32,000 bases of DNA from Pseudoalteromonas translucida KMM 520 (lineage in GTDB: Bacteria; Pseudomonadota; Gammaproteobacteria; Enterobacterales; Alteromonadaceae): assembly GCF_001465295.1 (NCBI RefSeq), contig NZ_CP011034.1:2340001-2372000 (forward strand), in the 5' to 3' direction. Both the position numbers and the translations under genes were made by a program. The notes beneath the pieces are model-generated. The model was not told the DNA's origin. It did not search any database and was given only the letters and a program-made list of their open reading frames with translations. This document shows positions 2,760 through 28,593 of this stretch, in pieces (position 1 is the first letter of the stretch; the number at the start of each line of letters is the position of its first letter).

Positions 2760-3965
2760 TTAATGCGTCACTTTTGCTATAAAATGCGATGCGCTTAAAC
2801 GCGCTAACCTATCGCACTCTAAAATTTCATCCAAGCTTTGCACATTGGTGTACGTGGCCGCTTCGAGAGTCTGTGCATTTATTGTGTATATATCGGTAAA
2901 ACCAATTTCACCATTTAAAAATGCACTTACCGCTATCTCGTTTGCGGCATTCACTGTCGTTGTTGCGCCTTGCCCTGAGCTACACGCATCAATCGCAAGT
3001 TGTAAGTTAGGGTAACGAGAAAAGTCAGGTTTAGTGAACGAAAAGTCACTAATATCAGAAAAATTCAACGGTTTAACCCCTGCATTTATGCGCTCAGGGT
3101 AAGCTAATGCATGGGCAATGGGGGTACGCATATCAGGATTACCCATTTGCGCTAAAATTGAGCCGTCGTGATACTGCACCATAGAATGAATAATACTCTG
3201 TGGATGAATAACCACATCAATATCACTCGGATCGCAGTTAAACAGCCATTTAGCTTCAATAAACTCAAGCCCTTTGTTCATCATAGTGGCCGAATCAACC
3301 GATATTTTTTGTCCCATAGACCAATTAGGGTGCGCCACGGCTTCTGCTATGGTTACATCTTTAAGGGTATTTATATCACGGGTTAAAAATGGGCCGCCTG
3401 AGCCGGTAAGTAATATTTTACTTACGCCATGAGATTGCAGGTGTTGATCGCCTTGCGCATTTTGTAGTGAATGCGGTAAGCATTGAAAAATAGCGTTATG
3501 TTCACTGTCTATTGGGAGCAATGTTGCTTTGTGTTGTTTTACTTTATCGATAAACAACTGACCCGACATAACTAATGATTCTTTATTGGCGAGCAGTACT
3601 TTTTTTCCAGCCTCTACTGCGCTTAGTGTCGGTAATAATCCGGCAGCGCCGACAATTGCCGACATGACAGCATCAACTTCTGGATGCGCACACAACTCGC
3701 TCATAGCCTGCTCACCATACATAACCTGCGTTTTGCATGGTGTCTTACTTAAATATAACGACAATTGCTCAGCAGCGCTTTGTGTTGCCATAACGCCATA
3801 ACGCGGCTGATGCGCAATGCATAGCTCAGCCATTTTTTTAGCATTTTGCCCAGCAGCTAATGCAAAAACACTAAACTGCTGACTATTCATTGCCACAACA
3901 TCTAAGGTATTAAGGCCAATAGAGCCTGTAGCCCCTAAAATTACCAGTTGCTGCTTTTTACTCAT
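2760..3965 (-). CDS. dxr: 1-deoxy-D-xylulose 5-phosphate reductoisomerase
   Basis: The ORF contains the GATGSIG NADPH-binding motif directly after MSKKQQLVILGATGSIG. I trimmed the ORF-track start (3989) to the ATG at 3965, which gives 401 aa (E. coli Dxr is 398 aa). This ATG overlaps the cdsA stop as ATGA. Confidence 0.92.
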   Translation of the reverse strand: MSKKQQLVILGATGSIGLNTLDVVAMNSQQFSVFALAAGQNAKKMAELCIAHQPRYGVMATQSAAEQLSLYLSKTPCKTQVMYGEQAMSELCAHPEVDAVMSAIVGAAGLLPTLSAVEAGKKVLLANKESLVMSGQLFIDKVKQHKATLLPIDSEHNAIFQCLPHSLQNAQGDQHLQSHGVSKILLTGSGGPFLTRDINTLKDVTIAEAVAHPNWSMGQKISVDSATMMNKGLEFIEAKWLFNCDPSDIDVVIHPQSIIHSMVQYHDGSILAQMGNPDMRTPIAHALAYPERINAGVKPLNFSDISDFSFTKPDFSRYPNLQLAIDACSSGQGATTTVNAANEIAVSAFLNGEIGFTDIYTINAQTLEAATYTNVQSLDEILECDRLARLSASHFIAKVTH

Positions 3966-4828
3966 AAACTCAAAGTCCACGCATAACACATTACAAACAT
4001 AGGTGCGGCTGCGGTTAGGCTATCAATACGATCTAAAATTCCGCCATGCCCTGGCAGGCAATTACCGCTGTCTTTAAGTCCTGCTTCGCGTTTAAACATA
4101 CTTTCTAGCAAATCACCCACCGCTGAAAACAAGGCAATAAACACAGTCATAATGGCGTAAATTGGCCATACGATTAAATCTACGTCGGTAAAATGACAAA
4201 ATGTAAGCACAAATATAACTGCAGCGACAACGCCGCCGGCTAAACCTTCAATAGTTTTATTTGGGCTTACTTTTGGCATGAGCTTACGCTTACCAAAACT
4301 TTTACCGGTAAAATAGGCACCAATATCGGCGCTCCATACAATTCCTAAAACCACTAAAATAAGCATAGAACCAAAATGACTAGATTCTGTATATTGCGCA
4401 CTGCGCAGCGTATTTAGGGCTAACCATAAAGGCACTAGTGTTAGTAATCCGGCAATACCGCGCATTACTATGCCTTCGTTCCATGCTTTAGCCATTTCTG
4501 GGTAGCGCCATACTAAATAACTAGCAACAATCCACCATGCAAACGACAGCGTAAATAAGTAATTTGCATCACCTACTAATTTGCCATCTTGCCAAAGTGA
4601 TTCGATTGGCCAGTGCAAGTTTAGTAACGCTAGCAAAGCGGCAACTAAAAGCACAAAAGCGCTGCGCTTAAGTTTATTGCACAGCCCCATAAAAGCAGAC
4701 CATTCCCATGCGCCCATTAATACAATTGCACCCGCAAAATAACTAAATAATGTCAGTGGGGTGTAAAAAACCAAAGCAAGCGCTAATGGTGCTAGCACGA
4801 GTGAGGTTAGAATGCGTTGTTTTAACAA
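3962..4828 (-). CDS. cdsA: Phosphatidate cytidylyltransferase (CDP-diglyceride synthase)
   Basis: Polytopic membrane protein with the C-terminal CdsA signature region (SxFKRxxGxKDSGxxLPGHGGxLDRxDS). The ORF-track N-terminal extension overlaps uppS. I propose the TTG start at 4828 (LLKQRILTSLVLAPL, compare E. coli MLKYRLISAFVLIP), giving 288 aa versus 285 aa in E. coli. The exact start is uncertain. Confidence 0.87.
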   Translation of the reverse strand: MLKQRILTSLVLAPLALALVFYTPLTLFSYFAGAIVLMGAWEWSAFMGLCNKLKRSAFVLLVAALLALLNLHWPIESLWQDGKLVGDANYLFTLSFAWWIVASYLVWRYPEMAKAWNEGIVMRGIAGLLTLVPLWLALNTLRSAQYTESSHFGSMLILVVLGIVWSADIGAYFTGKSFGKRKLMPKVSPNKTIEGLAGGVVAAVIFVLTFCHFTDVDLIVWPIYAIMTVFIALFSAVGDLLESMFKREAGLKDSGNCLPGHGGILDRIDSLTAAAPMFVMCYAWTLSL

Positions 4829-4848
4829 AATTATGACCCTTATTCTAT

Positions 4849-5610
4849 TTAGGTTTGAGCGAGTAATTGTTTTATTTGTTCGCCCGTACAACCAAATCGT
4901 CGCTCTCTGGCAACGTAACACGCTATGGCCTCAGCAAATGCTGCTTCATTAAAATCAGGCCACAGTGTGTCGGTAAAGTAAAGTTCAGCGTAAGCTGCTT
5001 GCCAGAGTAAAAAGTTACTAATTCTGACATCGCCACCAGTACGAATTAGTAAATCAGGCTCGGCCTGATCTGCCATACTCATGTACTGTGCTATACGCTC
5101 TTCTGTAATATCGGCTGGGTCTAATTGCCCCTGTGCAACTTGCTCTGCAAGTTGTTTAGCAGCATTAGCCATATCCCAACGTCCACCGTAATTTGCAGCA
5201 ACATTTAAATGCAGCCCGGTATTATTTGCTGTAAGCTTTTGAGCAGTATCTACTTTACTGCGTAAGCTTTCAGAAAACCGCGATAAGTCTCCAATAATGG
5301 TCAGTTTTACATTGTTTTTATGCAGCTTTTTAACTTCTTTACTAAGAACAAATAAAAAAAGCTCCATTAACGTTTTTACTTCGTCTTCAGGTCGACGCCA
5401 GTTCTCACTACTAAAAGCAAATAAGGTTAACGATTGTATCCCTAATTTAGTACAAAACTGTACAGATTGACGAACTGCGTCCACACCTTTTTTATGCCCA
5501 AACACACGCGGTCTATTTCTGGCTTGCGCCCAACGCCCGTTACCATCCATGATGATAGCTACATGTTTAGGTAAACATTGCTGTGAAATTGTGTCAGCAT
5601 CTAGAACCAT
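4849..5610 (-). CDS. uppS: Undecaprenyl diphosphate synthase (ditrans,polycis)
   Basis: [13 protein letters not shown] motif and conserved cis-prenyltransferase core. The long ORF-track start (5667) would read through a terminator hairpin. Plausible starts are the ATG at 5610 (253 aa, same as E. coli) or the ATG at 5628 (259 aa). Confidence 0.9.
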
Positions 5611-5628
5611 AAATATTGAGTATTCCAT

Positions 5629-5664
5629 AAAAAAACGCCGCCTAGTATACCCCAGCCGGCGTTT
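5629..5664 (-). terminator. Rho-independent-type hairpin just upstream of uppS, possibly ending the frr transcript
   Basis: On the minus strand, AAACGCCG (5664-5657) pairs with CGGCGTTT (5640-5633), an 8-bp stem followed by a T7 run (5635-5629). It lies about 130 nt downstream of the frr stop and directly abuts the uppS start candidates. Confidence 0.5.
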
Positions 5665-5793
5665 CAAAACTAATATATTTAACCTGTACTCGGGATAATA
5701 AATCTATTTCAAGTAGCTACTTTTAACGCTAACTGCGTTGAATTTACTTGCAATAGGCTAAAACTCTTAGCCCAAGTGCAGCGTATTAGTTTC

Positions 5794-6351
5794 TTAGATT
5801 TCCATCAACTCAGCTTCTTTTGCTGCTAATTGAGTATCCATTTCTTTAATGAATTTATCGGTCATCTTTTGAATTGCTTCTTCAGCTTGACGCGCTTCAT
5901 CTTCAGAAATATCTTTATCTTTCAATAAGTTTTTAAAATCGCCATTGGCGTCACGACGAATGTTACGTACTGCAACACGACCGCCTTCAACTTCACCGCG
6001 AACAATTTTAATTAAATTTTTACGACGTTCTTCAGTCAATGCTGGCAATGGTACACGAATAACTGAACCTGCCGACATAGGATTTAAACCTAAGTCAGAT
6101 GCCATTATTGCTTTTTCTACCGCTTGCGCAAGTGACTTGTCAAATACACCAATAGCCAGTGTACGTGAATCTTCAATTGTTACGTTAGCAACTTGGTTTA
6201 ACGGTGTTGGCGAGCCATAATACGACACCATAATACCATCTAGCAATGCAGGATGAGCACGACCAGTACGAATCTTAGATAACTGGCTGCCCAGTGCTGC
6301 TACACTCTTTTGCATGCGCTCTTGCGCATCTTTTTGAATATCGTTAATCAC
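5794..6351 (-). CDS. frr: Ribosome recycling factor
   Basis: 185-aa ORF, the same length as E. coli Frr and similar throughout ([17 protein letters not shown]... compare E. coli MISDIRKDAEVRMDKCV). It sits downstream of pyrH. Confidence 0.96.
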
Positions 6352-10081: not shown

Positions 10082-12700
10082 GTGGCATTACCCAACAAAG
10101 TAAAAAAGTTGCTTAGCGACGCAGAGCAACTGAGTGATTATCGCGATTGTTCTAGCTATTTTTATAAATGGCTTTTTAATGAGTTTTCTAAACAACCGGT
10201 TGGTAATTTAATTAATGCCAGGGCTGAATTCATAGATCGTTTGCTGATCAAACTGTTTCATGTTTATGATTTGGCGCACGAACCCGACCTAGCACTTATA
10301 GCCGTAGGTGGTTATGGCCGAGGTGAGTTGCACCCCTACTCCGACATCGACTTTTTACTGCTAGTAACACAGCAACCAAACGCTGAAATTAGCGAAAAAA
10401 TAGGTCAGTTTGTTACCATGCTTTGGGATCTCAATTTAGAGATTGGCCACAGTGTTCGCACTATAGCGCAAGCCATAGAGCAAAAGCGTGAAGACGTTAC
10501 CTTTGCCACCAGCTTATTAGAAAGCCGGCTTATTTTTGGTAATCATATAGAATTTGAAAAGCTAAAAAACCACATAATTGACACGCCAGTGTGGCGCTCA
10601 AATGAGTTTTTTTTAGCCAAAGTACAAGAGCAACATTTACGCCACCGAAAATGCCACGGCACAGCGTATAATCTCGAACCTAACATAAAAGAAAATCCCG
10701 GTGGCCTGCGCGATCTGCAAACCATTATTTGGGTTGCTAAAAAGCACTTTAGAGCAGAAACCCTACAAGAGCTTATTAGCCATGGCTACCTTACCCACGA
10801 AGAGTTTCAAGAGCTTTCTGAATGCCTAGAAAACTTATGGAATATTCGTTTTGCGCTGCATTTGGCTGCAGGGCGCTCAGAAAACCGCTTACTGTTTGAT
10901 CACCAACCGCAAGCCGCCGAAATTTTGGGCTTTGGTAGCGATGGTAAATCGTCGGTTGAGCGCATGATGAAACGCTTGTTCAGAATAATGAGCCGCGTAC
11001 GTGAGCTAAACCTGATGCTGCTGGCGTACTTTGAGCAAAGTATTTCGCCAAAACACCATCAACCCATTATTCAAGAGCTTGATCGCAATTTTGAGCGTAT
11101 TGGTAATCAAATTAAAGTAAAAAGCCCATCGGTATTTTTTAGACGCGATCAGCTTTTCATGTTATTTGAGCACATTGCCGACAACCCAGAAATAACGCAT
11201 ATTTACCCCAGTACTATTCGCACTATTCGCCAAGTGCGCCGCCGTTTACTAGGCGACTTACAAGATTACGCCGCCTGTCGCGAAGCTTTTTTACGTCTTA
11301 TAAAGCACCCTAATGGTATGGGCCGTGCGTTTACCTTAATGCATAAACACGGCATGCTTGCCGCTTATTTACCACAGTGGCGAAACATATTTGGGCAAAT
11401 GCAATTTGACTTATTTCATGCCTACACAGTAGATGAGCACACCCACAGATTAATAAATAATATTTATCAGTACTTTGATAAAACCGGTGTTAGCGAATTC
11501 CCTATTTGTAGCGAAATAGTCACTCGTATGGATAAACCTGAGCTGCTTTATTTAGCGGGTATATTTCATGACATAGCCAAAGGCCGTGGTGGCGACCACT
11601 CAGAGCTAGGCGCTGTTGACGCACTGGCCTTTGCAAAGTTACATGCCTTTTCTGTCGCCGATGGCAAACTAATCGCATGGCTAGTTAGTAATCATTTACT
11701 TATGTCGGTTACCGCACAACGTAAAGACATAAACGACCCTGGAGTTATTAAAGACTTTGCCACGCGAGTAAAAACAGAGCGCCAACTTGATTATTTATAT
11801 TGTTTAACGGTTGCCGATATACGTGCCACCAACGATAACTTATGGAACGATTGGAAAAACACCCTGCTGCGTGAGCTATATTTACATACGCAACACGCAC
11901 TGCGTTTAGGGCTTGAAAACCCAATGGATCAACGCGACCAAATTCGCGACAAAAAGCATCAAGCTAAACAGCGACTCCTCAACTTAGGCTACATGGAAGA
12001 CCAAATTGATTTAATTTGGAGCCGCTTTAAAGCCAATTACTTTACCGCCTTTAGCGAACAACAAATTTCATGGCACAGCCAGCATTTAGTTAATAGCCAA
12101 GATTTAAGTCAACCGAGTGTTATCGTATCAAATAAAGCGATGCACGGTGGCACCCAAGTATTCGTATACAGTCCTTACTCTGGGCCTTTATTTGCTCGCT
12201 TAGTGAGTGTAATTGGCTCTAAAAAGGCGCAAATACAACACGCGCAAGTGCTTACCACCAAAGATGGCTATGTGCTCTTTAACTTTGTTATTTTAGAAGT
12301 AAATGGCGAGCCAATTGCCAGTGGCAGAGCACAATCAATTAAACGCGCCCTAGAGCAAGCCTTGTTTGACCCGCGTAAAAAAATTCGCTTTAAAAAGAAT
12401 CGCTCGCAACGCTTTAAAGACTTTAATATAAAACCTAAAATTGTGCTGCGCCCGCATCCGCGTAAAGATCGCAGCCTAATTGAAATCCAAGCAATTGATA
12501 TACCCGGCTTATTGACTAAAATAGCCGAAGTTTTTCAAGCACACTTATTACACATACACGCTGCGCGTATCACCACAGTGGGGCAGCGCGCAGAAGATTT
12601 CTTCGTGGTCTCTAATAACGAGTACCAAGCACTTACAGACGAAGAACAAGCCAAAATTCATCAAGCATTGCGTAAAAAACTCAACGCAGAAACCGAATAA
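10082..12700 (+). CDS. glnD: Bifunctional PII uridylyltransferase/uridylyl-removing enzyme
   Basis: 872-aa ORF with a GTG start. It has the nucleotidyltransferase motif GGYGRGELHPYSDIDFLLL, the HD domain (FHDIAKGRGGDH) and two C-terminal ACT-like regions. The map-glnD-dapD order is conserved. Confidence 0.93.
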   Translation: MALPNKVKKLLSDAEQLSDYRDCSSYFYKWLFNEFSKQPVGNLINARAEFIDRLLIKLFHVYDLAHEPDLALIAVGGYGRGELHPYSDIDFLLLVTQQPNAEISEKIGQFVTMLWDLNLEIGHSVRTIAQAIEQKREDVTFATSLLESRLIFGNHIEFEKLKNHIIDTPVWRSNEFFLAKVQEQHLRHRKCHGTAYNLEPNIKENPGGLRDLQTIIWVAKKHFRAETLQELISHGYLTHEEFQELSECLENLWNIRFALHLAAGRSENRLLFDHQPQAAEILGFGSDGKSSVERMMKRLFRIMSRVRELNLMLLAYFEQSISPKHHQPIIQELDRNFERIGNQIKVKSPSVFFRRDQLFMLFEHIADNPEITHIYPSTIRTIRQVRRRLLGDLQDYAACREAFLRLIKHPNGMGRAFTLMHKHGMLAAYLPQWRNIFGQMQFDLFHAYTVDEHTHRLINNIYQYFDKTGVSEFPICSEIVTRMDKPELLYLAGIFHDIAKGRGGDHSELGAVDALAFAKLHAFSVADGKLIAWLVSNHLLMSVTAQRKDINDPGVIKDFATRVKTERQLDYLYCLTVADIRATNDNLWNDWKNTLLRELYLHTQHALRLGLENPMDQRDQIRDKKHQAKQRLLNLGYMEDQIDLIWSRFKANYFTAFSEQQISWHSQHLVNSQDLSQPSVIVSNKAMHGGTQVFVYSPYSGPLFARLVSVIGSKKAQIQHAQVLTTKDGYVLFNFVILEVNGEPIASGRAQSIKRALEQALFDPRKKIRFKKNRSQRFKDFNIKPKIVLRPHPRKDRSLIEIQAIDIPGLLTKIAEVFQAHLLHIHAARITTVGQRAEDFFVVSNNEYQALTDEEQAKIHQALRKKLNAETE

Positions 12701-12709
12701 GAGGACACT

Positions 12710-13540
12710 ATGTCAGATTTAAAAACGATGATCGAAAACGCCTGGGATAACCGCGATAGCATTAGCCCAAGCACAGTATCTGTTGAAGTAAAGCAAGCCA
12801 TTATTGACGCGCTTGACCTGCTAGACAGTGGCGCAGCACGCGTTGCTGAAAAAATATCGGGTGAATGGGTAGTACACCAATGGCTTAAAAAAGCGGTTTT
12901 ACTGTCGTTCCGTATTCGCGAAAACCAAGCAATGGACGATGGCGTAAATCAGTTTTACGACAAAGTACCACTTAAATTTAGCGACTACACGCCGGAGCAA
13001 TTTAAACAAGGCGGCATGCGCGTAGTGCCTAATGCTGTTGCGCGTAAAGGCAGCTTTGTAGGTAAAAACGTAGTACTTATGCCATCGTATGTAAACATTG
13101 GCGCATACGTTGACGACGGCACCATGGTTGATACATGGGCCACTGTAGGCTCGTGTGCACAAATTGGTAAGAACGTACACTTATCAGGTGGCGTAGGCAT
13201 AGGCGGTGTTTTAGAGCCATTACAAGCTAACCCAACCATCATCGAAGACAACTGTTTTATCGGCGCTCGCTCTGAAATTGTTGAAGGCGTAATTGTTGAA
13301 GAAGGCGCGGTAATTTCAATGGGCGTTTACATCAGCCAAAGTACCCGTATTTATGACCGTGAAACCGGCGAAATTCACTACGGCCGCGTACCAGCAGGCG
13401 CAGTAGTAGTCCCTGGCGCACTACCTTCAAAGGACGGTAGCCACAGCCTTTATGCTGCAATTATAGTGAAAAAAGTAGATAAGCAAACTCGCGAAAAAGT
13501 AGGCATCAACGCCCTGCTTCGCTCAATTGATGAAGAATAG
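12710..13540 (+). CDS. dapD: 2,3,4,5-tetrahydropyridine-2,6-dicarboxylate N-succinyltransferase
   Basis: 276-aa ORF with a [21 protein letters not shown] and the hexapeptide-repeat C-terminal half match E. coli DapD (274 aa). Confidence 0.95.
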
Positions 13541-13543
13541 CTA

Positions 13544-13577
13544 GTAGGTTGGGCTGAGTGCAACGAAACCCAACTAC
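13544..13577 (+). repeat. REP-like element (GTAG + imperfect palindrome), copy 1
   Basis: The sequence is GTAGGTTGGGCTGAGTGCAACGAAACCCAACTAC. GTAG(G)TTGGG pairs with CCCAACTAC, and the 5' GTAG is as in classical REP sequences. An inverted, diverged second copy lies at 14756-14779. Confidence 0.55.
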
Positions 13578-13620
13578 ACTTTAAAGTTAAGTGTTTTAGC
13601 TGAACTTTAATTGTATATTT

Positions 13621-13654
13621 AAAAGCTCTAGACCATTAGTCTAGAGCTTTTTTG
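13621..13654. terminator. Bidirectional terminator shared by dapD (+) and the orphan gene (-)
   Basis: In AAAAGCTCTAGAC-CATTA-GTCTAGAGCTTTTTT the arms form an 11-bp perfect stem, flanked by an A-run on one side and a T-run on the other. It ends 1 nt before the stop of the minus-strand ORF. Confidence 0.7.
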
Positions 13655-13655
13655 T

Positions 13656-14633
13656 TTAAAAATTTAAATCCATTACTGATGTATATTTAGTAGTTAAATT
13701 ATTCATCTCTTCTGCTGTATTATTTGAATTAATCAACTTAATTAGCTCTTTAAGTTCTGGAATTACACCCTGTTGGAAATTAAACTTATCTTGGTATGTT
13801 TTTAAGAATTCAAGGGTACTTAATAACTCTTTCACTTTTGTACTTTCACCAATAAAGTAACCTTTATCGTGGTGAAAATCTGTTATCTCATCAAACATTG
13901 AATTTAAATATGAGTAACCAATATGGTGGTTTTTTATTTTTTCACTTGAATTAGTAATTAGATTAGTTATCAAATTAACTTTGATTATGAGCTGAGTTTC
14001 TATCCTTGATGATAAATATTTTATTTTTTCATCTAAACTCCCTTCTGATAAGTTATGAAATAACTCTGCTTTAGAAAACCCAATTAAGCATTTGTCGCCG
14101 TATATTTTGGAATCCAAGCACCTTTCAATAACCTTCTCAGATTGTTCTATTCTTTTGAAAATATGTTCTTCATGGGCGCTTTGCTGCATAAGTCGAATTT
14201 GTTCTTCTGTTGCAGAAGCTTGCTTTTCATTAGCTGCTATTAATTTTTCAGTCAATACTCGCTGTTGCTTAGACTCATCTACTTGCAGCTCAAATGACTC
14301 TTTCGCTATTTTTTCTTGCTCTAAATTATTTTTTGCAGTTTCAGAAGCACTTTTGGCTGAATTAGCTAACTCTCTTTGCTGTAAAGCTAATGAATATATT
14401 AATAAAACCATTGTAAAAAAAGTAAGTAATGGATTTAAAACCCCACCGAAAAAATCCCCCATAGCTCCCCATTCACCTCTATTGGCAGGAGGTTTAAACC
14501 AAGAAAAAGTGCTGTTATATGTGTAGAAAGCCAAAAATGTTGCACCAAACACTATTAAAAGAGTTAGTGCTATAGCTACTTTTGAATTATTTTCGATAAA
14601 TTTAAGTAGTTGATTCTCTGTTTTTTCGTTCAT
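13656..14633 (-). CDS. Orphan inner-membrane protein: 2 TM helices + long coiled coil + unassigned helical C-terminal domain; putAbiC-like N-terminal module (candidate abortive-infection/defence effector)
   Basis: 325-aa ORF with an AAGGA SD 7 nt before the ATG. TM1 spans about residues 18-39 and TM2 about residues 61-84. The motif WGAMGDFFGGVLNPLLTFFTMVLLIYSLALQQREL precedes an E/K/Q-rich heptad region (about residues 85-165). The gene is very AT-rich compared with its neighbours. The family assignment is from memory only. Confidence 0.8.
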   Translation of the reverse strand: MNEKTENQLLKFIENNSKVAIALTLLIVFGATFLAFYTYNSTFSWFKPPANRGEWGAMGDFFGGVLNPLLTFFTMVLLIYSLALQQRELANSAKSASETAKNNLEQEKIAKESFELQVDESKQQRVLTEKLIAANEKQASATEEQIRLMQQSAHEEHIFKRIEQSEKVIERCLDSKIYGDKCLIGFSKAELFHNLSEGSLDEKIKYLSSRIETQLIIKVNLITNLITNSSEKIKNHHIGYSYLNSMFDEITDFHHDKGYFIGESTKVKELLSTLEFLKTYQDKFNFQQGVIPELKELIKLINSNNTAEEMNNLTTKYTSVMDLNF

Positions 14634-14755
14634 GTATATCCTTATAAATTTGTATTTATCTCATATTTAATAATGAGAGCGCATTTTAGTCTAGCTTTTA
14701 AAGAAATAGCCAAAAATTAAGTTGTAAGCTAAATACTATAAATAGCTAAACCATA

Positions 14756-14779
14756 GGGTTTCGCTTCACTCAACCTACG
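14756..14779 (-). repeat. REP-like element, copy 2 (inverted relative to copy 1, degenerate)
   Basis: The minus strand reads CGTAGGTTGAGTGAAGCGAAACCC. Aligned to copy 1 it matches 21 of 23 positions with one 4-nt indel (GGCT). TAGGTT can pair with AACC(C)TA. Confidence 0.5.
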
Positions 14780-14828
14780 CCGATAAAATTAACGCCGAGT
14801 TACAGCTCATCGATAGCTCGCCCTCCCT

Positions 14829-14863
14829 AAAAAGCAAAAAGGCACTTAAAAATAAGTGCCTTT
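14829..14863 (-). terminator. phhB terminator
   Basis: AAAGGCACTTA (14838-14848) pairs with TAAGTGCCTTT (14853-14863), an 11-bp stem. On the minus strand it is followed by TTTTTGCTTTTT. It lies 26 nt downstream of the phhB stop. Confidence 0.65.
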
Positions 14864-14888
14864 GTTGGGTTGCTCAATTAGTTTGGTA

Positions 14889-15233
14889 TTACAGCGCGTT
14901 AAATACGTCATCTGTTTTAGCTGCGCAAATAAAATCGTTTTTGTGTAGGCCTTTAATTGAATGGCTCCACCATGTAACCGTTACTTTGCCCCACTCGGTT
15001 AATAAACCTGGGTGATGGCCTTCGTCTTCAGCCATGTCGCCTACTTTGTTAGTAAACGCGATAGCTTGTTTAAAGTTTTTAAATTTGTAAACACGCTCAA
15101 GCTGCATAATGCCATCGCGTACTTCAGGTACCCAATCAGGGATTTTGGTAATTAATTGCGCTAGCTCTTCGTCTGATACTTTTGGCGCATCGGCATGACA
15201 GGCTTCGCATTTTTGTGCACTTAATGAAGACAT
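14889..15233 (-). CDS. phhB: Pterin-4a-carbinolamine dehydratase
   Basis: 114-aa ORF with the PCD/DCoH core [31 protein letters not shown]. It lies immediately downstream of phhA (39-nt gap), the classical phhAB pair. Confidence 0.92.
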
Positions 15234-15272: not shown

Positions 15273-16070
15273 TTAACTAGCTAATTTTTCTTTTGGTGAA
15301 AATTTTGGGTCGTGTAAGCCAAGTTCTTTTGCTTGTTCAACCAAAGCCATTATATCCATTTGCGATATATCAAACAGATCATGAATCGAATTTATGGTGT
15401 AGTACTGTGGTTGCATAATATCAATTCGGTACGGGGTACGCAGCACATCTAATACACTCATTGGCGTTATTTCTGGCGTGTTTGAGTATACATACTGGGT
15501 TTCTCCTGGGCTTGATAAAATACCACCGCCGTATATGCGCAAACCATTATCGGTTTGCATTAAACCAAATTCAACGGTAAACCAGTACATACGCGCTAGA
15601 TATACACGATCTTTTTTCTCTGCCGCGTAGCCAAGTTTTCCGTACTTATGCGTAAACTCTGCAAAATCAGGGTTAGTGAGCATAGCGCAGTGACCAAATA
15701 TTTCATGAAACACATCTGGTTCTTGTAGGTAATCAAACTCATCACGGCTACGAATAAAAGTCGCTACCGGAAATTGCTTGTTGGCCAGTAACCGAAAAAA
15801 CTCATCAAAGTCGATAAGTGCCGGCACTGGCGCTACTTGCCAGCCGGTAGTGGCTAGCAGCACTTCGTTTAGTTCACTAAGTTGCGGAATACGATCGTGT
15901 GGCAAGTTTATTTTTTTTAAACCTTCCATATATTCGTCACAGGCTTTGCCTTCAATGCACGCAAGTTGGCGTGCTACGAGCTCAGACCAAATTTTATTTT
16001 CTTCATCGCTCCAATGTATAACGCCATTTTCATCTGGTGTTTTGGAGGTGTATTTACTTGCTTTAGCCAT
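15273..16070 (-). CDS. phhA: Phenylalanine 4-hydroxylase (bacterial, monomeric type)
   Basis: 265-aa ORF with the aromatic amino acid hydroxylase iron-binding region (EPDVFHEIFGHCAMLTNPDFAEF ... YWFTVEFGL). Confidence 0.93.
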   Translation of the reverse strand: MAKASKYTSKTPDENGVIHWSDEENKIWSELVARQLACIEGKACDEYMEGLKKINLPHDRIPQLSELNEVLLATTGWQVAPVPALIDFDEFFRLLANKQFPVATFIRSRDEFDYLQEPDVFHEIFGHCAMLTNPDFAEFTHKYGKLGYAAEKKDRVYLARMYWFTVEFGLMQTDNGLRIYGGGILSSPGETQYVYSNTPEITPMSVLDVLRTPYRIDIMQPQYYTINSIHDLFDISQMDIMALVEQAKELGLHDPKFSPKEKLAS

Positions 16071-20871: not shown

Positions 20872-21531
20872 TTACTTATCTGCTAACTTCTTTTTAAGCT
20901 CTGCTAACTCATCGTCTACTTTTTCGTTTTTTTGCAGTTCGGCAATTTCATCTGCTAAGGTTTTTTTGCCTAAATCGTACGACTCTATTTGAGATTCTAG
21001 TCCATCTATTTTAGTTTCGTAACGCTCAAAACGATTAAGTGCATCTTCTACCTTTGAGCTATCAAGTGCTTTTTTAACTTCAAGGCGCGACTCAGCCGAA
21101 CGTTGACGTAATATAATCGCTTTTTGACGAGCTTTAGCATCTGCTAGCTTTTCTTGTAGCGTGGTTACTTCTTGTTGTAACTTTTCGATGTGTGAGCCTA
21201 CATGCTCAAGTTCACCCTCGACTGAAGCTACAGCTTCGGCTGACTTTTGCTTTTCGAGTAAAGCGGCACGTGCTAAATCGTCACGATCTTTGCTTAGCGC
21301 TAGTTCAGCTTTGTCTTGCCAATCATTCATTTGCGCTTTAAGTGTATCAACGCGACGTACTAATTCTTTTCGCTCAGCGAGTGTTTTAGCTGACGTAGAG
21401 CGAACCTCTACCAAGGTGTCTTCCATTTCTTGAATAATCAGACGAACCATTTTTTCTGGGTCTTCTGCTTTATCTAAAATGGCATTGATATTAGAATTAA
21501 CAATGTCTGCAAAACGTGAAAAAATTCCCAT
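20872..21531 (-). CDS. pspA: Phage shock protein A (PspA/IM30)
   Basis: 219-aa ORF. MGIFSRFADIVNSNINAILDKAEDPEKMVRLIIQEMEDTLVEVRSTSAK is nearly identical to the E. coli PspA N-terminus. The rest is coiled coil. Confidence 0.95.
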   Translation of the reverse strand: MGIFSRFADIVNSNINAILDKAEDPEKMVRLIIQEMEDTLVEVRSTSAKTLAERKELVRRVDTLKAQMNDWQDKAELALSKDRDDLARAALLEKQKSAEAVASVEGELEHVGSHIEKLQQEVTTLQEKLADAKARQKAIILRQRSAESRLEVKKALDSSKVEDALNRFERYETKIDGLESQIESYDLGKKTLADEIAELQKNEKVDDELAELKKKLADK

Positions 21532-21578
21532 AACATTTACCTCTATAATTTAAACTTAGTTTGTCTGCTATAACTGTA

Positions 21579-21593
21579 TCAATATGCTTGCCA
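21579..21593 (-). promoter_or_regulatory. sigma54 (-24/-12) promoter of pspA
   Basis: The minus strand reads TGGCAA-GCATA-TTGA, against the consensus TGGCAC-N5-TTGC: 8 of 10 defined positions with correct spacing. It lies 48-62 nt upstream of the pspA ATG, and the divergent activator gene pspF is adjacent. Confidence 0.6.
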
Positions 21594-21615
21594 ACTTTAT
21601 AAAAGTTAAAATACA

Positions 21616-21628
21616 TAATTTATTCATA
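21616..21628 (-). promoter_or_regulatory. IHF-like site between the pspA promoter and upstream repeats
   Basis: The minus strand reads TATGAATAAATTA, which differs from WATCAANNNNTTR at one position. It sits at about -48 to -60 relative to the inferred start site, in an AT-rich tract. Confidence 0.3.
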
Positions 21629-21649
21629 GAGTTAAACTCAAATTACAAA

Positions 21650-21694
21650 TTACTTTAGTTATCTCTCATTATGAAATACACTAACTGTTAGTAA
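21650..21694. promoter_or_regulatory. Candidate PspF upstream activating sequences (pair of TTACT-N2/3-AGTTA-type sites)
   Basis: TTACTTTAGTTA (21650-21661) and TAACTGTTAGTAA (21682-21694) are mutually inverted. They lie at roughly -82 to -126 from the inferred pspA start, the interval occupied by the PspF UAS in E. coli. They overlap the pspF promoter region. Confidence 0.3.
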
Positions 21695-21716
21695 AAATGA
21701 CTAAGAGTTAGGAAAT

Positions 21717-27362: not shown

Positions 27363-28123
27363 TGCAACCCTTACTAAAAGTACAAGCATTATCAAAAAGC
27401 TTTAATTTACGGGCTGGATTATTTAGCCGAAAAAAATTTGCGGTACTTAAAAATATTTCGTTTAGTGTTGGTAAAGGCGAAACCATAGCCATAATTGGTG
27501 AAACGGGTGCCGGGAAAAGCACCCTAGCAAAATTACTTGCTGGAGCCGATAGCGCTGATAGCGGGCAAATTTTACTCGAAAACAACATAATCGAAAATAA
27601 CGGTATTCGCGATCCACAATGTCGCCATATCAGAATGATTTTTCAAGACTCAGCAACCTCGCTAAACCCGGCACTGACTATTGCCGACATGCTCGATGAT
27701 TGCCTGCAATTTAATACCGATTTTGACAAACAACAACGCGCCGAAAAAATTGACAGCACCATGTTAAAAGTCGGGTTGTTAGTAGATCATCAACAATATT
27801 ACCCGCACATGTTTAGCATAGGGCAATTACAGCGTGTAGCGCTCGCTCGCGCGCTTATATTAGATCCTAAGGTTGTTGTGCTCGACGAAGCACTTTCATC
27901 TTTAGATCCCTCTGTACGCGCACAAATAGTTAATTTATTACTTAAGCTACAACTAGAAACCGGATTAACCTATATATTAATAACCCATCATCTTAGCTTA
28001 GTACGCCATATTAGCGACCAACTGGTCGTGTTAGAGCGCGGCGAAATTGTTGAGTACGGCCCCACCGAAGCGATATTCCAAAATCCCCAATCGAAAATAA
28101 CACAAAAATTATTGAGTTGTTGA
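27362..28123 (+). CDS. sapF: Peptide ABC transporter ATP-binding protein SapF
   Basis: Walker A GETGAGKS, signature region SIGQLQR and Walker B VVVLDEA. I prefer the GTG at 27362, which has an AAGGAG SD 8 nt upstream and overlaps the sapD stop as TAGTG. It gives [14 protein letters not shown], aligned to E. coli SapF MIETLLEVRNLSKTF. The ORF-track start at 27329 is an alternative. Confidence 0.86.
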   Translation: MQPLLKVQALSKSFNLRAGLFSRKKFAVLKNISFSVGKGETIAIIGETGAGKSTLAKLLAGADSADSGQILLENNIIENNGIRDPQCRHIRMIFQDSATSLNPALTIADMLDDCLQFNTDFDKQQRAEKIDSTMLKVGLLVDHQQYYPHMFSIGQLQRVALARALILDPKVVVLDEALSSLDPSVRAQIVNLLLKLQLETGLTYILITHHLSLVRHISDQLVVLERGEIVEYGPTEAIFQNPQSKITQKLLSC

Positions 28124-28171
28124 TGAGGAAGCTCAAAAAAAACTAACATCAATACGTAAAAGAGTACGCGT

Positions 28172-28291
28172 TTAGGTTTGATTAGTAAAATGGTCTACGC
28201 CGCATAAAAATGCACGGCGTACACAGCGCGAAATACAGTGGTAGTATTTTGTATCGACCAAACTTACCTGACGTTTTCTTGCGATAGCCAT
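28172..28291 (-). pseudogene. 39-codon N-terminal relic of a Y1/HUH (COG1943, RAYT-like) transposase
   Basis: The minus-strand ORF reads [39 protein letters not shown]. From memory, the (T/K)YYHC(I/V)[11 protein letters not shown](E/V)D stretch is the conserved N-terminus of ~320-aa transposase-like proteins of Vibrio/Shewanella/Alteromonadales. No continuation exists in any frame before sapF (28123). Confidence 0.45.
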
Positions 28292-28357
28292 GTGTCACCT
28301 TGCTTAATTATCGTACTAGCTAGAGCTTAGTTAATTACACTGATATTATAAATATTA

Positions 28358-28415
28358 GAATGGGTGTCTTTATTGAAAATATTTTAAAATGGGTGTCTGC
28401 ATTAAAAATATTTCA
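28358..28415. repeat. Two tandem 29-nt direct repeats
   Basis: GAATGGGTGTCTTTATTGAAAATATTTTA (28358-28386) and AAATGGGTGTCTGCATTAAAAATATTTCA (28387-28415) share 24 of 29 identical positions by hand alignment. Confidence 0.85.
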
Positions 28416-28474
28416 ACTGTAAACCTAAATACCAAGTTTGGTTAATCACTTACTGATATCTGGCACCTTATTTT

Positions 28475-28538
28475 ACTAATAACTGCTCTTACTCATAACT
28501 ACTTTTCTTAATAACTACTTTTCCTAATAGCTGCTTTT
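28475..28538. repeat. Four tandem 16-nt repeats (consensus nCTAATAACTnCTTTT)
   Basis: The units are ACTAATAACTGCTCTT, ACTCATAACTACTTTT, CTTAATAACTACTTTT and CCTAATAGCTGCTTTT, exactly head to tail from 28475 to 28538. Stops occur in all frames. Confidence 0.85.
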
Positions 28539-28542
28539 TTAC

Positions 28543-28574
28543 AAACAAAAAAGGCGCTTTAAAAAGCGCCTTTT
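28543..28574 (-). terminator. ppiD terminator (bidirectional hairpin)
   Basis: AAGGCGCTTT (28551-28560) pairs with AAAGCGCCTT (28563-28572), a 10-bp stem. It is followed by TTTTTTGTTTGT on the minus strand and TTTTAATTATTTT on the plus strand. It lies about 20 nt downstream of the ppiD stop. Confidence 0.7.
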
Positions 28575-28593
28575 AATTATTTTATTACGAATT

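What the first reader, a model, noticed from the sequence alone, without database searches (positions are those of the whole stretch)
13544..14779. AT-rich one-gene insertion between dapD and phhB, bracketed by two inverted REP-like elements
This is the only part of the window that looks accessory. I counted G+C by hand in 60-nt lines. Inside the gene it is 13/60 (13681-13740) and 21/60 (14221-14280). In dapD it is 29/60 (13141-13200) and in phhB 28/60 (14941-15000). The segment is bounded by GTAGGTTGGGCTGAGTGCAACGAAACCCAACTAC (13544-13577, plus strand) and, in inverted orientation, GTAGGTTGAGTGAAGCGAAACCC (14779-14757, minus strand). Each element is a GTAG tetranucleotide followed by an imperfect hairpin, which is the REP architecture. 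Pairs of inverted REPs normally flank RAYT transposase genes or form short REPINs. Here they enclose about 1.2 kb carrying an unrelated orphan gene with its own SD and a bidirectional terminator. This suggests a horizontally acquired or REP-mediated cassette dropped into a conserved intergenic slot.
Basis: partly seen in the sequence, partly recalled or inferred. Interest (0 to 1): 0.7.

Follow-up and report, generated by a model that had tools for sequence, protein, structure and literature searches.

The report
Abi-like gene flanked by REPs
An AT-rich, strain-variable gene for a membrane-anchored protein related to phage abortive-infection proteins sits between two core genes of Pseudoalteromonas translucida. 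The two REP hairpins beside it are real, but they look like old landmarks of the site rather than the ends of a mobile cassette, so this is a fairly ordinary accessory islet.

Summary
A 325-aa ORF (13656-14633, minus strand, GC 0.305 against 0.409 for the window) lies between convergent dapD and phhB. A GTAG-tagged REP hairpin sits on one side (13544-13577) and a decayed inverted copy on the other (14756-14778, one base off the reported coordinates).

The repeats belong to a widespread REP family that is RAYT-associated and has a covarying stem. The gene is accessory. Relatives with ~96.5% identical flanks carry a BCCT transporter plus a 201-aa ORF instead. Others carry an unrelated 210-aa gene, extra genes, or nothing.

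The "recent, REP-mediated cassette" reading is not supported:
- Every homologue with readable flanks lies in this same slot.
- The gene is as diverged from those homologues as the flanking core genes are.
- The left REP is present whatever the cargo, and the conserved dapD terminator separates it from the cargo.
- The right REP is decaying in a different way in each lineage.

The protein shares its two-helix membrane module (WGxxGDFFGGxLNP) with AbiC/AbiP-type abortive-infection proteins but lacks their putAbiC domain. Its only full-length outside relative is an accessory gene in a Mu-like prophage. It is probably a single-gene phage-exclusion protein in a recombination-variable islet. Interest is modest.

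The parts
12710..13540 (+). dapD (tetrahydrodipicolinate N-succinyltransferase), the conserved left flank
   Evidence: TIGR00965 equivalog, E 1e-145; 87-99% aa identity in other Pseudoalteromonas loci
13544..13577 (+). REP_L: a GTAG-tagged REP hairpin 3 nt after the dapD stop codon, inside the dapD 3' UTR. It is an old fixed feature of the site.
   Evidence: Sequence; RNAfold -10.2 kcal/mol. Present at the same place with every cargo type: L001, L004, L081, L204-L212, L214, L218, L221. A possible remnant survives in the empty-site locus L002.
13621..13651 (.). Bidirectional intrinsic terminator for dapD (+) and for the Abi-like gene (-). It marks the left edge of the variable segment.
   Evidence: 13-bp stem with a T-run. 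Its position and the upstream 'aactttaattgtatat' are conserved in all slot variants including the empty L002, with different stem sequences in each lineage. Homology to the nearest relatives ends at 13652.
13656..14633 (-). 325-aa accessory gene (PTRA_a2506). It encodes a two-helix membrane anchor with a WGxxGDFFGGxLNP motif, a long coiled-coil stalk and a family-specific helical C-terminal domain. Putative abortive-infection or phage-exclusion protein.
   Evidence: ORF; GC 0.305; dN/dS 0.12-0.20; N-terminal module homology; AF2 model with pLDDT 76; prophage relatives
14639..14643 (-). Shine-Dalgarno AAGGA, 5 nt upstream of the ATG at 14633-14631
   Evidence: Read from the sequence; 'ataaggatat(a/g)catg' is conserved in L081, L218 and L220
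14756..14778 (-). REP_R: a degenerate inverted REP copy about 120 nt upstream of the gene's start codon
   Evidence: (I2). Intact at the homologous position in L001 and L004. Decayed differently in L081, L218 and L220.
14779..14823 (-). Conserved tail on the 5' side of REP_R ('...gagct..ctcggcgttaattttatcggc-GTAGG'). It is the right-hand part of the variable segment.
   Evidence: Unit alignment. Homology to the nearest relatives resumes at 14824.
14838..14863 (-). phhB terminator, part of the conserved right flank
   Evidence: 11-bp stem with a T-run; 99% identical in L204
14889..15233 (-). phhB (pterin-4a-carbinolamine dehydratase), the conserved right flank
   Evidence: NF002016 equivalog, E 4e-60

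Best explanation
The segment 13653-14823 is one allele of a recombination-variable islet that lies between the terminators of the convergent core genes dapD and phhB in Pseudoalteromonas.

What the gene encodes. Its single gene encodes a membrane-anchored protein. It has two N-terminal transmembrane helices of the AbiC/AbiP type, with the invariant G59, D60, G64 and P68 (motif WGxxGDFFGGxLNP) at the start of helix 2. A cytoplasmic coiled-coil stalk of about 90 residues follows, then a helical C-terminal domain found only in this family.

How it most likely works. It is most likely a single-gene abortive-infection or phage-exclusion protein. The inferred mechanism is that it sits inactive in the inner membrane, that a phage product is sensed by the C-terminal domain, and that the membrane module then compromises the membrane or blocks phage development. 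This mechanism is an analogy with AbiP, AbiC and PdpSau, not something shown here.

How long it has been there. The gene is an old resident of this slot and has been co-inherited with its flanks. It has been lost or replaced in some lineages, including the closest sampled relatives, by exchange of the whole inter-terminator segment.

What the REPs are. Both are genuine copies of a RAYT-type REP family. REP_L is a fixed element of the dapD 3' UTR. By analogy with E. coli REPs it may act as an mRNA 3'-end stabiliser or as an attenuator close to the stop codon. REP_R with its tail is a decaying relic at the phhB-proximal edge of the slot alleles that carry an AbiC/P-like gene. Neither is acting as the end of a transposable cassette today.
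For: Accessory status and slot variability:
- The window matches L204 at ~96.5% nucleotide identity up to 13652 and again from 14824. In between, L204 has a 201-aa ORF plus a BCCT transporter.
- L001 and L004 carry a different 210-aa gene on the other strand. L002 is empty. L081 adds TPR and BCCT genes. L220 has an ABC-efflux operon. L211 has an IS.

Old residence:
- Every homologue with readable flanks is next to dapD in this slot: L081-83, L214-217, L218, L220/221.
- The window and L218 are colinear over 6.2 kb at 84%, with the gene at 79-91% per 100 nt and glnD at 75-89%. Against L081 the gene is 81% identical and the flanks 82%.
- dS is 0.65-0.78 for the gene, against 0.5-1.05 for dapD and 1.5-2.3 for glnD. 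dN/dS is 0.12-0.20.

REPs as landmarks:
- REP_L is present with all cargo types, and the terminator lies between it and the cargo.
- REP_R is mutated differently in the window, L081, L218 and L220.

REP family:
- At least 120 metagenome contigs and 157 copies.
- Stem pairs 11/25, 15/21 and 16/20 covary, being paired in 89/89, 86/89 and 83/89 distinct copies.
- RAYT genes lie beside copies in 5 loci.

Protein:
- The profile search found 3068 relatives, nearly all matching only the N-terminal ~110 residues.
- Of the 109 nearest, 23 have PF16872 putAbiC, 9 hit PADLOC AbiP and 5 hit AbiC.
- hhalign of residues 7-176 against the putAbiC-bearing relatives gives probability 99.8%.
- The full-length relative P0013 (34% identity) is an AT-rich accessory gene between the morphogenesis and protease genes of a Mu-like prophage. 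A Shewanella Mu-like phage has a relative at the same hot spot, beside a reverse transcriptase.
- UniRef already names the protein 'Phage abortive i...'.
- Background on AbiC/AbiP and PdpSau comes from PMC13064643 and PMC10127798.
Against: - The protein itself gives no hit to PF16872, to the PADLOC AbiC/AbiP models or to NCBIfam. Its C-terminal half has no detectable relative in PDB or BFVD. The defence role therefore rests on the shared membrane module and on the genomic context of relatives.
- No neighbouring defence genes occur in the window.
- REP_R and its tail lie inside the segment that differs from the nearest relatives. They accompany both AbiC/P-like cargo types, so some role of REP units in exchanging the cargo cannot be excluded.
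- L081 has a third tail-REP unit, so its TPR gene is flanked by direct repeats of the unit.
- A second low-GC islet bracketed by REPs exists in P. shioyasakiensis.
- The genome-wide REP copy number and the presence of a RAYT in this strain could not be checked.
Confidence: 0.6

Rival explanations
1. REP-mediated gene capture. The two tail-REP units are the arms of a REPIN-like element, or are recombination sites. Cargo genes are inserted or swapped at these sites, either by a RAYT acting in trans or by REP-REP recombination.
For: - The pair has the same '+ then -' polarity as the family's short doublets (24 of 27 adjacent pairs) and as a true REPtron (L155, REP-RAYT-REP).
- The L and R units share about 55 nt of 5' tail beyond the REP itself.
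- Two different AbiC/P-like genes occupy the same REP-bracketed position in opposite orientations.
- In L081 the TPR gene plus terminator is flanked by direct repeats of the tail-REP unit, as a single crossover at that unit would produce.
- A second REP(+)...REP(-) pair encloses a low-GC 2-kb gene cluster in P. shioyasakiensis.
Against: - REP_L is present with non-Abi cargo and without any REP_R (L204-L212).
- The conserved dapD terminator lies between REP_L and the cargo.
- Against the nearest relatives the junctions fall at the two terminators, not at the REPs.
- REP_R is decaying.
- The gene has never been seen outside this slot, and its divergence equals that of its flanks.
- No RAYT occurs in the window or in any Pseudoalteromonas locus fetched.
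- In L224 both outer REPs sit 7-16 nt after the stop codons of convergent core genes. This suggests that brackets arise passively from REPs placed in 3' UTRs.
Confidence: 0.15
2. A recent horizontally acquired islet. The AT-rich gene was imported into strain KMM 520 from outside the genus, and its composition has not yet drifted towards that of the host.
For: - GC is 0.305 against 0.409 for the window.
- The gene is absent from relatives with ~96.5% identical flanks.
- Relatives of the protein are phage- and plasmid-borne.
Against: - Orthologues at 75-90% aa identity lie in the same slot in several Pseudoalteromonas lineages, with divergence equal to that of their flanks.
- They have the same low GC (L081 orthologue 0.303), so the composition is a stable property of the gene.
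- There is no integrase, tRNA or direct repeat at the junctions.
- An ultimate phage origin long ago is not excluded.
Confidence: 0.1
3. The gene is a real membrane protein with a role unrelated to phage. It shares only a generic two-helix anchor with Abi proteins.
For: - It gives no hit to any curated defence model.
- The C-terminal domain has no known relative.
- There are no adjacent defence genes.
- Other alleles of the slot carry transporters and small membrane proteins with no defence signature.
Against: - The shared module is not generic. It carries an invariant G-D...G...P signature (G59, D60, G64, P68).
- About a fifth to a quarter of its nearest relatives carry putAbiC domains (23 of 109 by Pfam; 45 of 161 by iterated search), and others hit the PADLOC AbiP and AbiC models.
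- The only full-length outside relative and a partial one sit in the accessory hot spot of Mu-like phages, one of them beside a reverse transcriptase.
- Presence varies between strains, and purifying selection is relaxed but real. Both are typical of defence genes.
Confidence: 0.25

Closest known systems
Lactococcal AbiC/AbiP group (Pfam PF16872 putAbiC; PADLOC AbiC and AbiP)
   Same: It is a single-gene, membrane-anchored protein of similar size. The N-terminal module (two helices, WGxxGDFxGGxLNP, then a Q-x-x-E-L helix) aligns with putAbiC-bearing proteins at hhalign probability 99.8%. AbiC also has two TM helices (PMC13064643).
   Different: The extra-membrane putAbiC domain is absent. In its place are a coiled-coil insertion of about 32 residues within a long stalk, and a helical domain with no known relative. 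The PADLOC AbiC and AbiP models do not hit it. No phenotype is known.
PdpSau, the prophage-encoded membrane-anchored abortive-infection protein of S. aureus (PMC10127798)
   Same: It has a membrane anchor plus a cytoplasmic domain and acts as a single gene. It is prophage-associated, as are the relatives P0013 and MuM16-1 p31. It offers a model in which the membrane is compromised on infection.
   Different: PdpSau has one TM helix and an OB-fold-like domain. No sequence relationship to PdpSau was tested or shown here.
REP / REPIN-RAYT systems (REPtrons)
   Same: The elements have a GTAG tag plus an imperfect palindrome. The stem covaries. Short inverted doublets and BIME-like arrays exist elsewhere (L141). 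RAYT genes are flanked by the same REPs (L155).
   Different: In the window the two copies are 1.18 kb apart and enclose a non-transposase gene plus a terminator. One copy is degenerate. No RAYT is nearby. Copy number in Pseudoalteromonas appears low, with 2 copies in 32 kb here and 3 in the 8 kb fetched around the hit in a P. shioyasakiensis replicon.
Variable defence or accessory islets between convergent core genes, and accessory-gene hot spots of Mu-like phages
   Same: Alternative cargo sits at a fixed chromosomal address bounded by conserved genes and terminators. The cargo is low in GC and its presence varies between strains. Relatives of the gene occupy the hot spot between the Mu virion-morphogenesis and protease genes.
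   Different: The islet is very small, with one gene here, and only some of its alleles carry an Abi-like gene. No recombinase is associated.

Membership tests
Pfam PF16872 putAbiC / AbiC-AbiP group | Presence of the ~80-aa putAbiC extra-membrane domain | tested here: not met
   hmmscan at E<=1 gives no PF16872 hit. An iterated search seeded with the P0011 domain finds 45 of 161 relatives but not P0001 or P0013. hhalign of residues 150-325 against the putAbiC set gives probability 0.1%.
Pfam PF16872 putAbiC / AbiC-AbiP group | N-terminal two-helix membrane anchor with the conserved WGxxGDFxGGxLNP motif shared by family members | tested here: met
   A profile built without the query scores it 108 bits. 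hhalign gives probability 99.8%, E 5e-29. G59, D60, G64 and P68 are invariant in 110 sequences. 23 of the 109 nearest relatives carry PF16872.
PADLOC AbiC / AbiP | Hit to the PADLOC AbiC or AbiP HMM | tested here: not met
   0 families at E<=1 for the window protein. 9 of its N-terminal relatives hit AbiP and 5 hit AbiC.
Abortive-infection / phage-exclusion proteins (functional class) | Reduces phage yield on infection, with or without death of the infected cell | not testable with these tools
   Only context is available: relatives in Mu-like prophage and phage accessory hot spots and on plasmids and phages.
REP (GTAG-tagged repetitive extragenic palindromes) | GTAG tetranucleotide followed by an imperfect palindrome in an extragenic position | tested here: met
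   REP_L meets this fully. REP_R keeps the GTAG and the 5' arm only. Family stem covariation: pairs 11/25, 15/21 and 16/20 are paired in 89/89, 86/89 and 83/89 distinct copies.
REP (GTAG-tagged repetitive extragenic palindromes) | Many copies dispersed in the same genome | tested here: inconclusive
   Only 2 copies occur in the 32-kb window, both in this slot. The rest of the genome was not available. The family has at least 157 copies in at least 120 metagenome contigs and 3 copies in the 8 kb fetched from a P. shioyasakiensis replicon. Only 5 plasmid records match.
REP (GTAG-tagged repetitive extragenic palindromes) | Association of the family with a RAYT (Y1/HUH transposase) | tested here: met
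   L155 has REP(+)-181-aa Y1_Tnp ORF-REP(-). RAYT homologues lie beside REPs in L134, L165, L156 and L091. NCBI names their homologues 'REP-associated tyrosine transposase'. No RAYT is in the window or the Pseudoalteromonas loci.
REPIN | Two inverted REPs separated by a short spacer, forming one long hairpin | tested here: not met
   The copies are 1.18 kb apart and enclose a gene and a terminator. Only the polarity (+ then -) matches the family's doublets of under 150 nt.
REPtron | An inverted REP pair flanks a RAYT gene | tested here: not met
   The enclosed ORF has no Y1_Tnp domain and no tblastn similarity to the L155 RAYT.
Integron gene cassette | attC site (RYYYAAC...GTTRRRY), cassettes in direct orientation, integrase nearby | tested here: not met
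   The core-like motifs are in the reverse order (GTTGGGC...ACCCAAC). The two elements are inverted, not direct. No integrase-like ORF is in the region.
Recently acquired genomic island | Deviant composition and absence from close relatives | tested here: met
   GC 0.305 against 0.409; absent from L204-L212, whose flanks are ~96.5% identical.
Recently acquired genomic island | Divergence from its homologues much lower than that of the flanks, or mobility genes, tRNA or direct repeats at the borders | tested here: not met
   The gene's identity to L218 and L081 equals that of the flanks, and its dS is within the range of the flanks. The junctions are plain terminators.

The most novel reading that the evidence does not exclude
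The ~90-nt tail-REP units on both sides of the slot are the two arms of a REPIN-like element whose spacer has been opened. This element serves as a reusable landing pad where AbiC/P-like defence genes are inserted, inverted or exchanged, by REP-REP recombination or by a RAYT acting in trans. REP pairs would then mark a previously unrecognised class of small gene-capture sites in Pseudoalteromonas. The second REP-bracketed low-GC islet in P. shioyasakiensis and the tail-REP duplication around the TPR gene in L081 would be further examples.
Probability: 0.1. Interest if true: 0.65.

Novelty: new member of a known kind. Interest (0 to 1): 0.3.

Why it matters
If the protein is shown to block phages, it would add a subfamily to the AbiC/AbiP group. 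This subfamily comes from marine Gammaproteobacteria and Mu-like prophages. It keeps the conserved membrane module but carries a different cytoplasmic domain. That would help separate what the membrane module does, as the presumed effector, from what the variable domain does, as the presumed sensor.

The locus also gives a clean natural series of alleles at one address: empty, two different Abi-like genes, transporter-containing versions and an IS-disrupted version. This series is useful for studying how very small accessory islets turn over.

It is also a caution. Low GC and flanking repeats do not by themselves indicate a recent or repeat-mediated insertion.

Tried and rejected
- Integron cassette/attC reading. 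The GTTGGGC/ACCCAAC motifs look like attC core sites, but they are in the wrong order and the two elements are inverted. Rejected.
- Structure-based function. The AF2 model (pLDDT 76, all-helical) gave no Foldseek match with E<0.04 in PDB or BFVD.
- Rfam scan of 13400-15000. Only a chance-level BsrG hit, E 0.84.
- Recombination breakpoint inside dapD. Identity to L204 declines only gently towards the slot (100 to 93% per 100 nt, then 87% in the REP/terminator stretch) and shows no clear break. Inconclusive.
- Rule that REPs lie in the sense orientation after stop codons. In metagenome loci with GC<=0.50, 9 copies were sense and 4 antisense out of 75. Too weak to use.
- REP_R remnant in the empty-site locus L002. 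Only a 9-mer matches, which I treated as chance.
- Relatedness of the two cargo proteins beyond the N-terminal motif. hhalign aligns only residues 45-81.
- Other slot ORFs (201, 195, 193, 123 aa and the TPR protein). None matches the Abi-type module or any PADLOC model.
- RAYT in Pseudoalteromonas. Not found in any fetched locus. A protein search with a low-GC RAYT returned named hits only from cyanobacteria, Deltaproteobacteria-type MAGs and an Anaerolineae MAG among its top 120.
- A fuzzy-regex REP scan timed out and was replaced by blastn-short and mismatch scans.
Full report
**What is there**

The window comes from Pseudoalteromonas translucida KMM 520. The ORF product is 100% identical to PTRA_a2506.

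The local order is as follows:
- glnD, 10082-12700, plus strand
- dapD, 12710-13540, plus strand
- a GTAG-tagged hairpin, REP_L, 13544-13577
- a 13-bp terminator hairpin, 13621-13651
- a 325-aa ORF on the minus strand, 13656-14633
- a degenerate inverted copy of the repeat, REP_R, 14778 to 14756 on the minus strand
- a conserved tail of about 45 nt, to 14823
- the phhB terminator, 14838-14863
- phhB, 14889-15233, minus strand
- phhA, 15273-16070, minus strand

The ORF has GC 0.305 against 0.409 for the window. The SD (AAGGA, 5 nt before the ATG) and the shared bidirectional terminator are as described. The right element's coordinates are one base off, and that copy has lost 3 nt and its 3' stem arm.

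Within the window alone the repeat pair is not beyond chance. Its reality comes from comparison with other loci.

**The repeats are a genuine REP family**

These held 157 copies (89 distinct) from hosts of 35-69% GC.

The free stem positions covary:
- Pair 11/25 is T-A 48, C-G 32 and T-G 9, and is never unpaired.
- Pairs 15/21 and 16/20 are paired in 86/89 and 83/89 distinct copies.
- A tandem G·A/A·G sits between them.

Adjacent copies are mostly "+ then -" doublets less than 150 nt apart (24 of 27), and there are BIME-like arrays such as L141.

In L155 a REP(+)...REP(-) pair encloses a 181-aa Y1/HUH transposase. RAYT homologues lie beside REPs in four more loci. Their database relatives are named "REP-associated tyrosine transposase".

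The window's arrangement therefore has the polarity of a REPtron or REPIN. However, its copies are 1.18 kb apart, it contains no RAYT, and one arm is decayed. In Pseudoalteromonas the family appears to be low-copy. There are two copies in this 32 kb, and three in the 8 kb fetched from the 899-kb P. shioyasakiensis replicon. The genome-wide count for this strain could not be obtained.

**The slot is variable and the gene is accessory**

dapD loci from other species, and loci that encode the identical phhB protein, show many alleles between the two terminators:

| Locus | Cargo between dapD and phhB |
|---|---|
| L002 (sp. MMG010) | empty, about 290 bp |
| L001, L004 | an unrelated 210-aa gene on the plus strand, with both REPs intact |
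| L204-L212 | a 146- to 201-aa membrane ORF (L206 also has a 123-aa ORF) plus a BCCT transporter, REP_L only |
| L211 | as above, plus an IS |
| L006 | a 195-aa ORF plus BCCT, no REP |
| L081, L214, L215 | TPR gene, an orthologue of the window's gene, and BCCT |
| L220, L221 | an ABC-efflux operon plus an orthologue |
| L218 | same layout as the window |

The L204 group is about 96.5% identical to the window at the DNA level. That identity runs right up to 13652 and resumes at 14824. The segment that differs is therefore 13653-14823, bounded by the two terminators and not by the two REPs.

**It is not a recent or REP-delimited insertion**

- Every homologue whose flanks can be read lies in this same slot next to dapD.
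- The window and L218 are colinear over 6.2 kb at 84%. The gene is as diverged (79-91% per 100 nt) as glnD (75-89%). Against L081 the gene is 81% identical and the flanks 82%.
- dS of the gene is 0.65-0.78. This lies within the range set by dapD (0.5-1.05) and glnD (1.5-2.3). dN/dS is 0.12-0.20, so it is a real gene under moderately relaxed purifying selection.
- The orthologues have the same low GC (0.303), so the composition is a stable property of the gene and not a sign of recent arrival.
- REP_L is present with every cargo type in this clade, and a possible remnant survives in the empty site. The conserved dapD terminator and its upstream motif lie between REP_L and the cargo.
- REP_R with its tail occurs only in alleles that carry an AbiC/P-like gene. 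It is decaying differently in each lineage: a deletion in the window, truncation in L218, and substitutions in L081 and L220.

**Points that keep a REP-recombination role open**

- The L and R units share about 55 nt of tail beyond the REP.
- L081 has a third unit, so its TPR gene and terminator are flanked by direct repeats of the unit.
- In P. shioyasakiensis another REP(+)...REP(-) pair encloses a 2-kb low-GC cluster of small membrane genes. There, both outer REPs sit 7-16 nt after the stop codons of convergent core genes. This suggests that such brackets can arise passively from REPs residing in 3' UTRs.
- A test of that orientation rule in metagenome loci was too weak to decide.

**The protein**

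No Pfam, NCBIfam or PADLOC model hits it. Two PHROGs of unknown function match residues 16-106.

An exhaustive profile search found 3068 cluster representatives, almost all matching only the first ~110 residues. Among the 109 nearest, 23 carry PF16872 putAbiC, 9 hit PADLOC AbiP and 5 hit AbiC.

hhalign of residues 7-176 against the putAbiC-bearing relatives gives probability 99.8%. The C-terminal half shows no relation to the putAbiC domain. G59, D60, G64 and P68 are invariant.

The AF2 model (pLDDT 76) has the following parts:
- helix 3-39, which is TM1
- one very long helix, 52-174, which is TM2 plus a stalk
- a helical bundle, 188-324

The model has no significant match in PDB or BFVD.

The 210-aa alternative cargo of L001 and L004 carries the same N-terminal module (E 1e-15 against a profile built without either protein) but nothing else in common.

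The only full-length relative outside the family, P0013 (34% identity), lies in an AT-rich accessory block between the morphogenesis and protease genes of a Mu-like prophage. Shewanella phage MuM16-1 has a partial relative at the same hot spot, next to a reverse transcriptase. The module also occurs on ~40-kb enterobacterial plasmids and in Leptospira and Klebsiella phages.

From the literature:
- AbiC has two TM helices and AbiP has one. Both TM and nucleic-acid-binding domains of AbiP are needed for its phenotype.
- AbiC and AbiP are grouped as AbiC/P.
- PdpSau is a prophage membrane-anchored Abi that depolarises infected cells.

**Most likely mechanism**

What is shown:
- a conserved, selected gene
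- a predicted two-helix anchor with a conserved motif
- homology of that module to AbiC/P-type proteins
- prophage hot-spot context of relatives
- presence that varies between strains

What is inferred:
- The protein sits inactive in the inner membrane with its C-terminal domain in the cytoplasm.
- A phage component is sensed by that domain.
- The membrane module then disturbs the membrane or blocks phage development, aborting the infection.

Separately, REP_L starts 3 nt after the dapD stop codon and lies upstream of the terminator, so it is part of the dapD mRNA. By analogy with E. coli REPs (established knowledge, not tested here) it may stabilise the 3' end or attenuate translation termination.

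**Verdict**

The gene is accessory and the REPs are real, but this is an old allele of a recombination-variable islet and not a freshly inserted REP-bounded cassette. The gene is a new, uncharacterised member of the broad AbiC/AbiP-related set of membrane proteins, and UniRef already labels it "Phage abortive i...". Interest is modest. The most novel reading not excluded, REP units acting as gene-capture sites, has a probability of about 0.1.

Noticed in passing
L081 7019-7090 and 8295-8375 (also L214, L215, L216, L217): A third, degenerate tail-REP unit (REP_M) lies between the Abi-like gene and a TPR_12 gene. As a result the TPR gene plus the dapD terminator is flanked by direct repeats of the ~90-nt tail-REP unit. 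A single crossover at that unit, or a local duplication, would leave this pattern.
   Followed up: partly
L224 (P. shioyasakiensis NZ_CP077771.1) 3857-6011: A second REP(+)...REP(-) bracket in the genus. Three REP copies enclose a 2-kb block of GC 0.33-0.38 (flanks 0.43-0.46) carrying 70-aa, 127-aa and DUF998 membrane ORFs. The outer REPs lie 16 and 7 nt after the stop codons of a convergent methyltransferase gene and ggt.
   Followed up: partly
L225 6600-9000; L226 (Shewanella phage MuM16-1) 1451-4277: Relatives of the protein occupy the hot spot between the Mu virion-morphogenesis and protease genes. In the prophage the relative shares an AT-rich block with an unannotated 405-aa ORF. In MuM16-1 it sits next to an RNA-directed DNA polymerase and a regulator.
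   Followed up: partly
L141 12733-13056; L145 5052-11386: L141 holds a BIME-like tandem array of six REPs in alternating orientation, with a period of about 117 nt. L145 holds five same-strand copies in a repeating 212/2525-nt pattern. This shows that the same REP family is actively amplified in other organisms.
   Followed up: no
window 13621-13651 and homologous positions in L001, L002, L081, L204: The dapD terminator keeps its position and its upstream 'aactttaattgtatat' motif, but each lineage has a different stem sequence that still pairs, so the stems have changed by compensatory turnover.
   Followed up: no
L211 8574-9323: An IS with a DDE_Tnp_1 transposase is inserted in the same slot between the BCCT gene and the 201-aa ORF. 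This is further evidence that the slot tolerates insertions.
   Followed up: no
L223 156-1133: The closest known allele (90% aa, P0002) sits on a 1.2-kb contig whose stored DNA does not translate to the listed protein because of an in-frame TAG. It is either a pseudogene or a variant assembly.
   Followed up: no
window 28124-28593 and 21532-21716: The other sub-0.34 GC windows (500-nt windows starting at 21301-21401 and 28101-28301) centre on these intergenic gaps. One is a 470-nt gap before the ppiD-like gene. The other is the divergent region between a pspA-like gene and a pspF-like sigma-54 activator gene (names are my reading of the translations; PspA and the adjacent psp genes are supported by Pfam in related loci). 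Neither contains an ORF of 90 aa or more.
   Followed up: partly
window 13554 and 13568 (REP_L positions 11 and 25): The window's REP_L has C at position 11 and A at position 25. This combination is absent from all 89 distinct metagenome copies, which always pair at these positions. Even the 'intact' copy has therefore begun to drift.
   Followed up: yes
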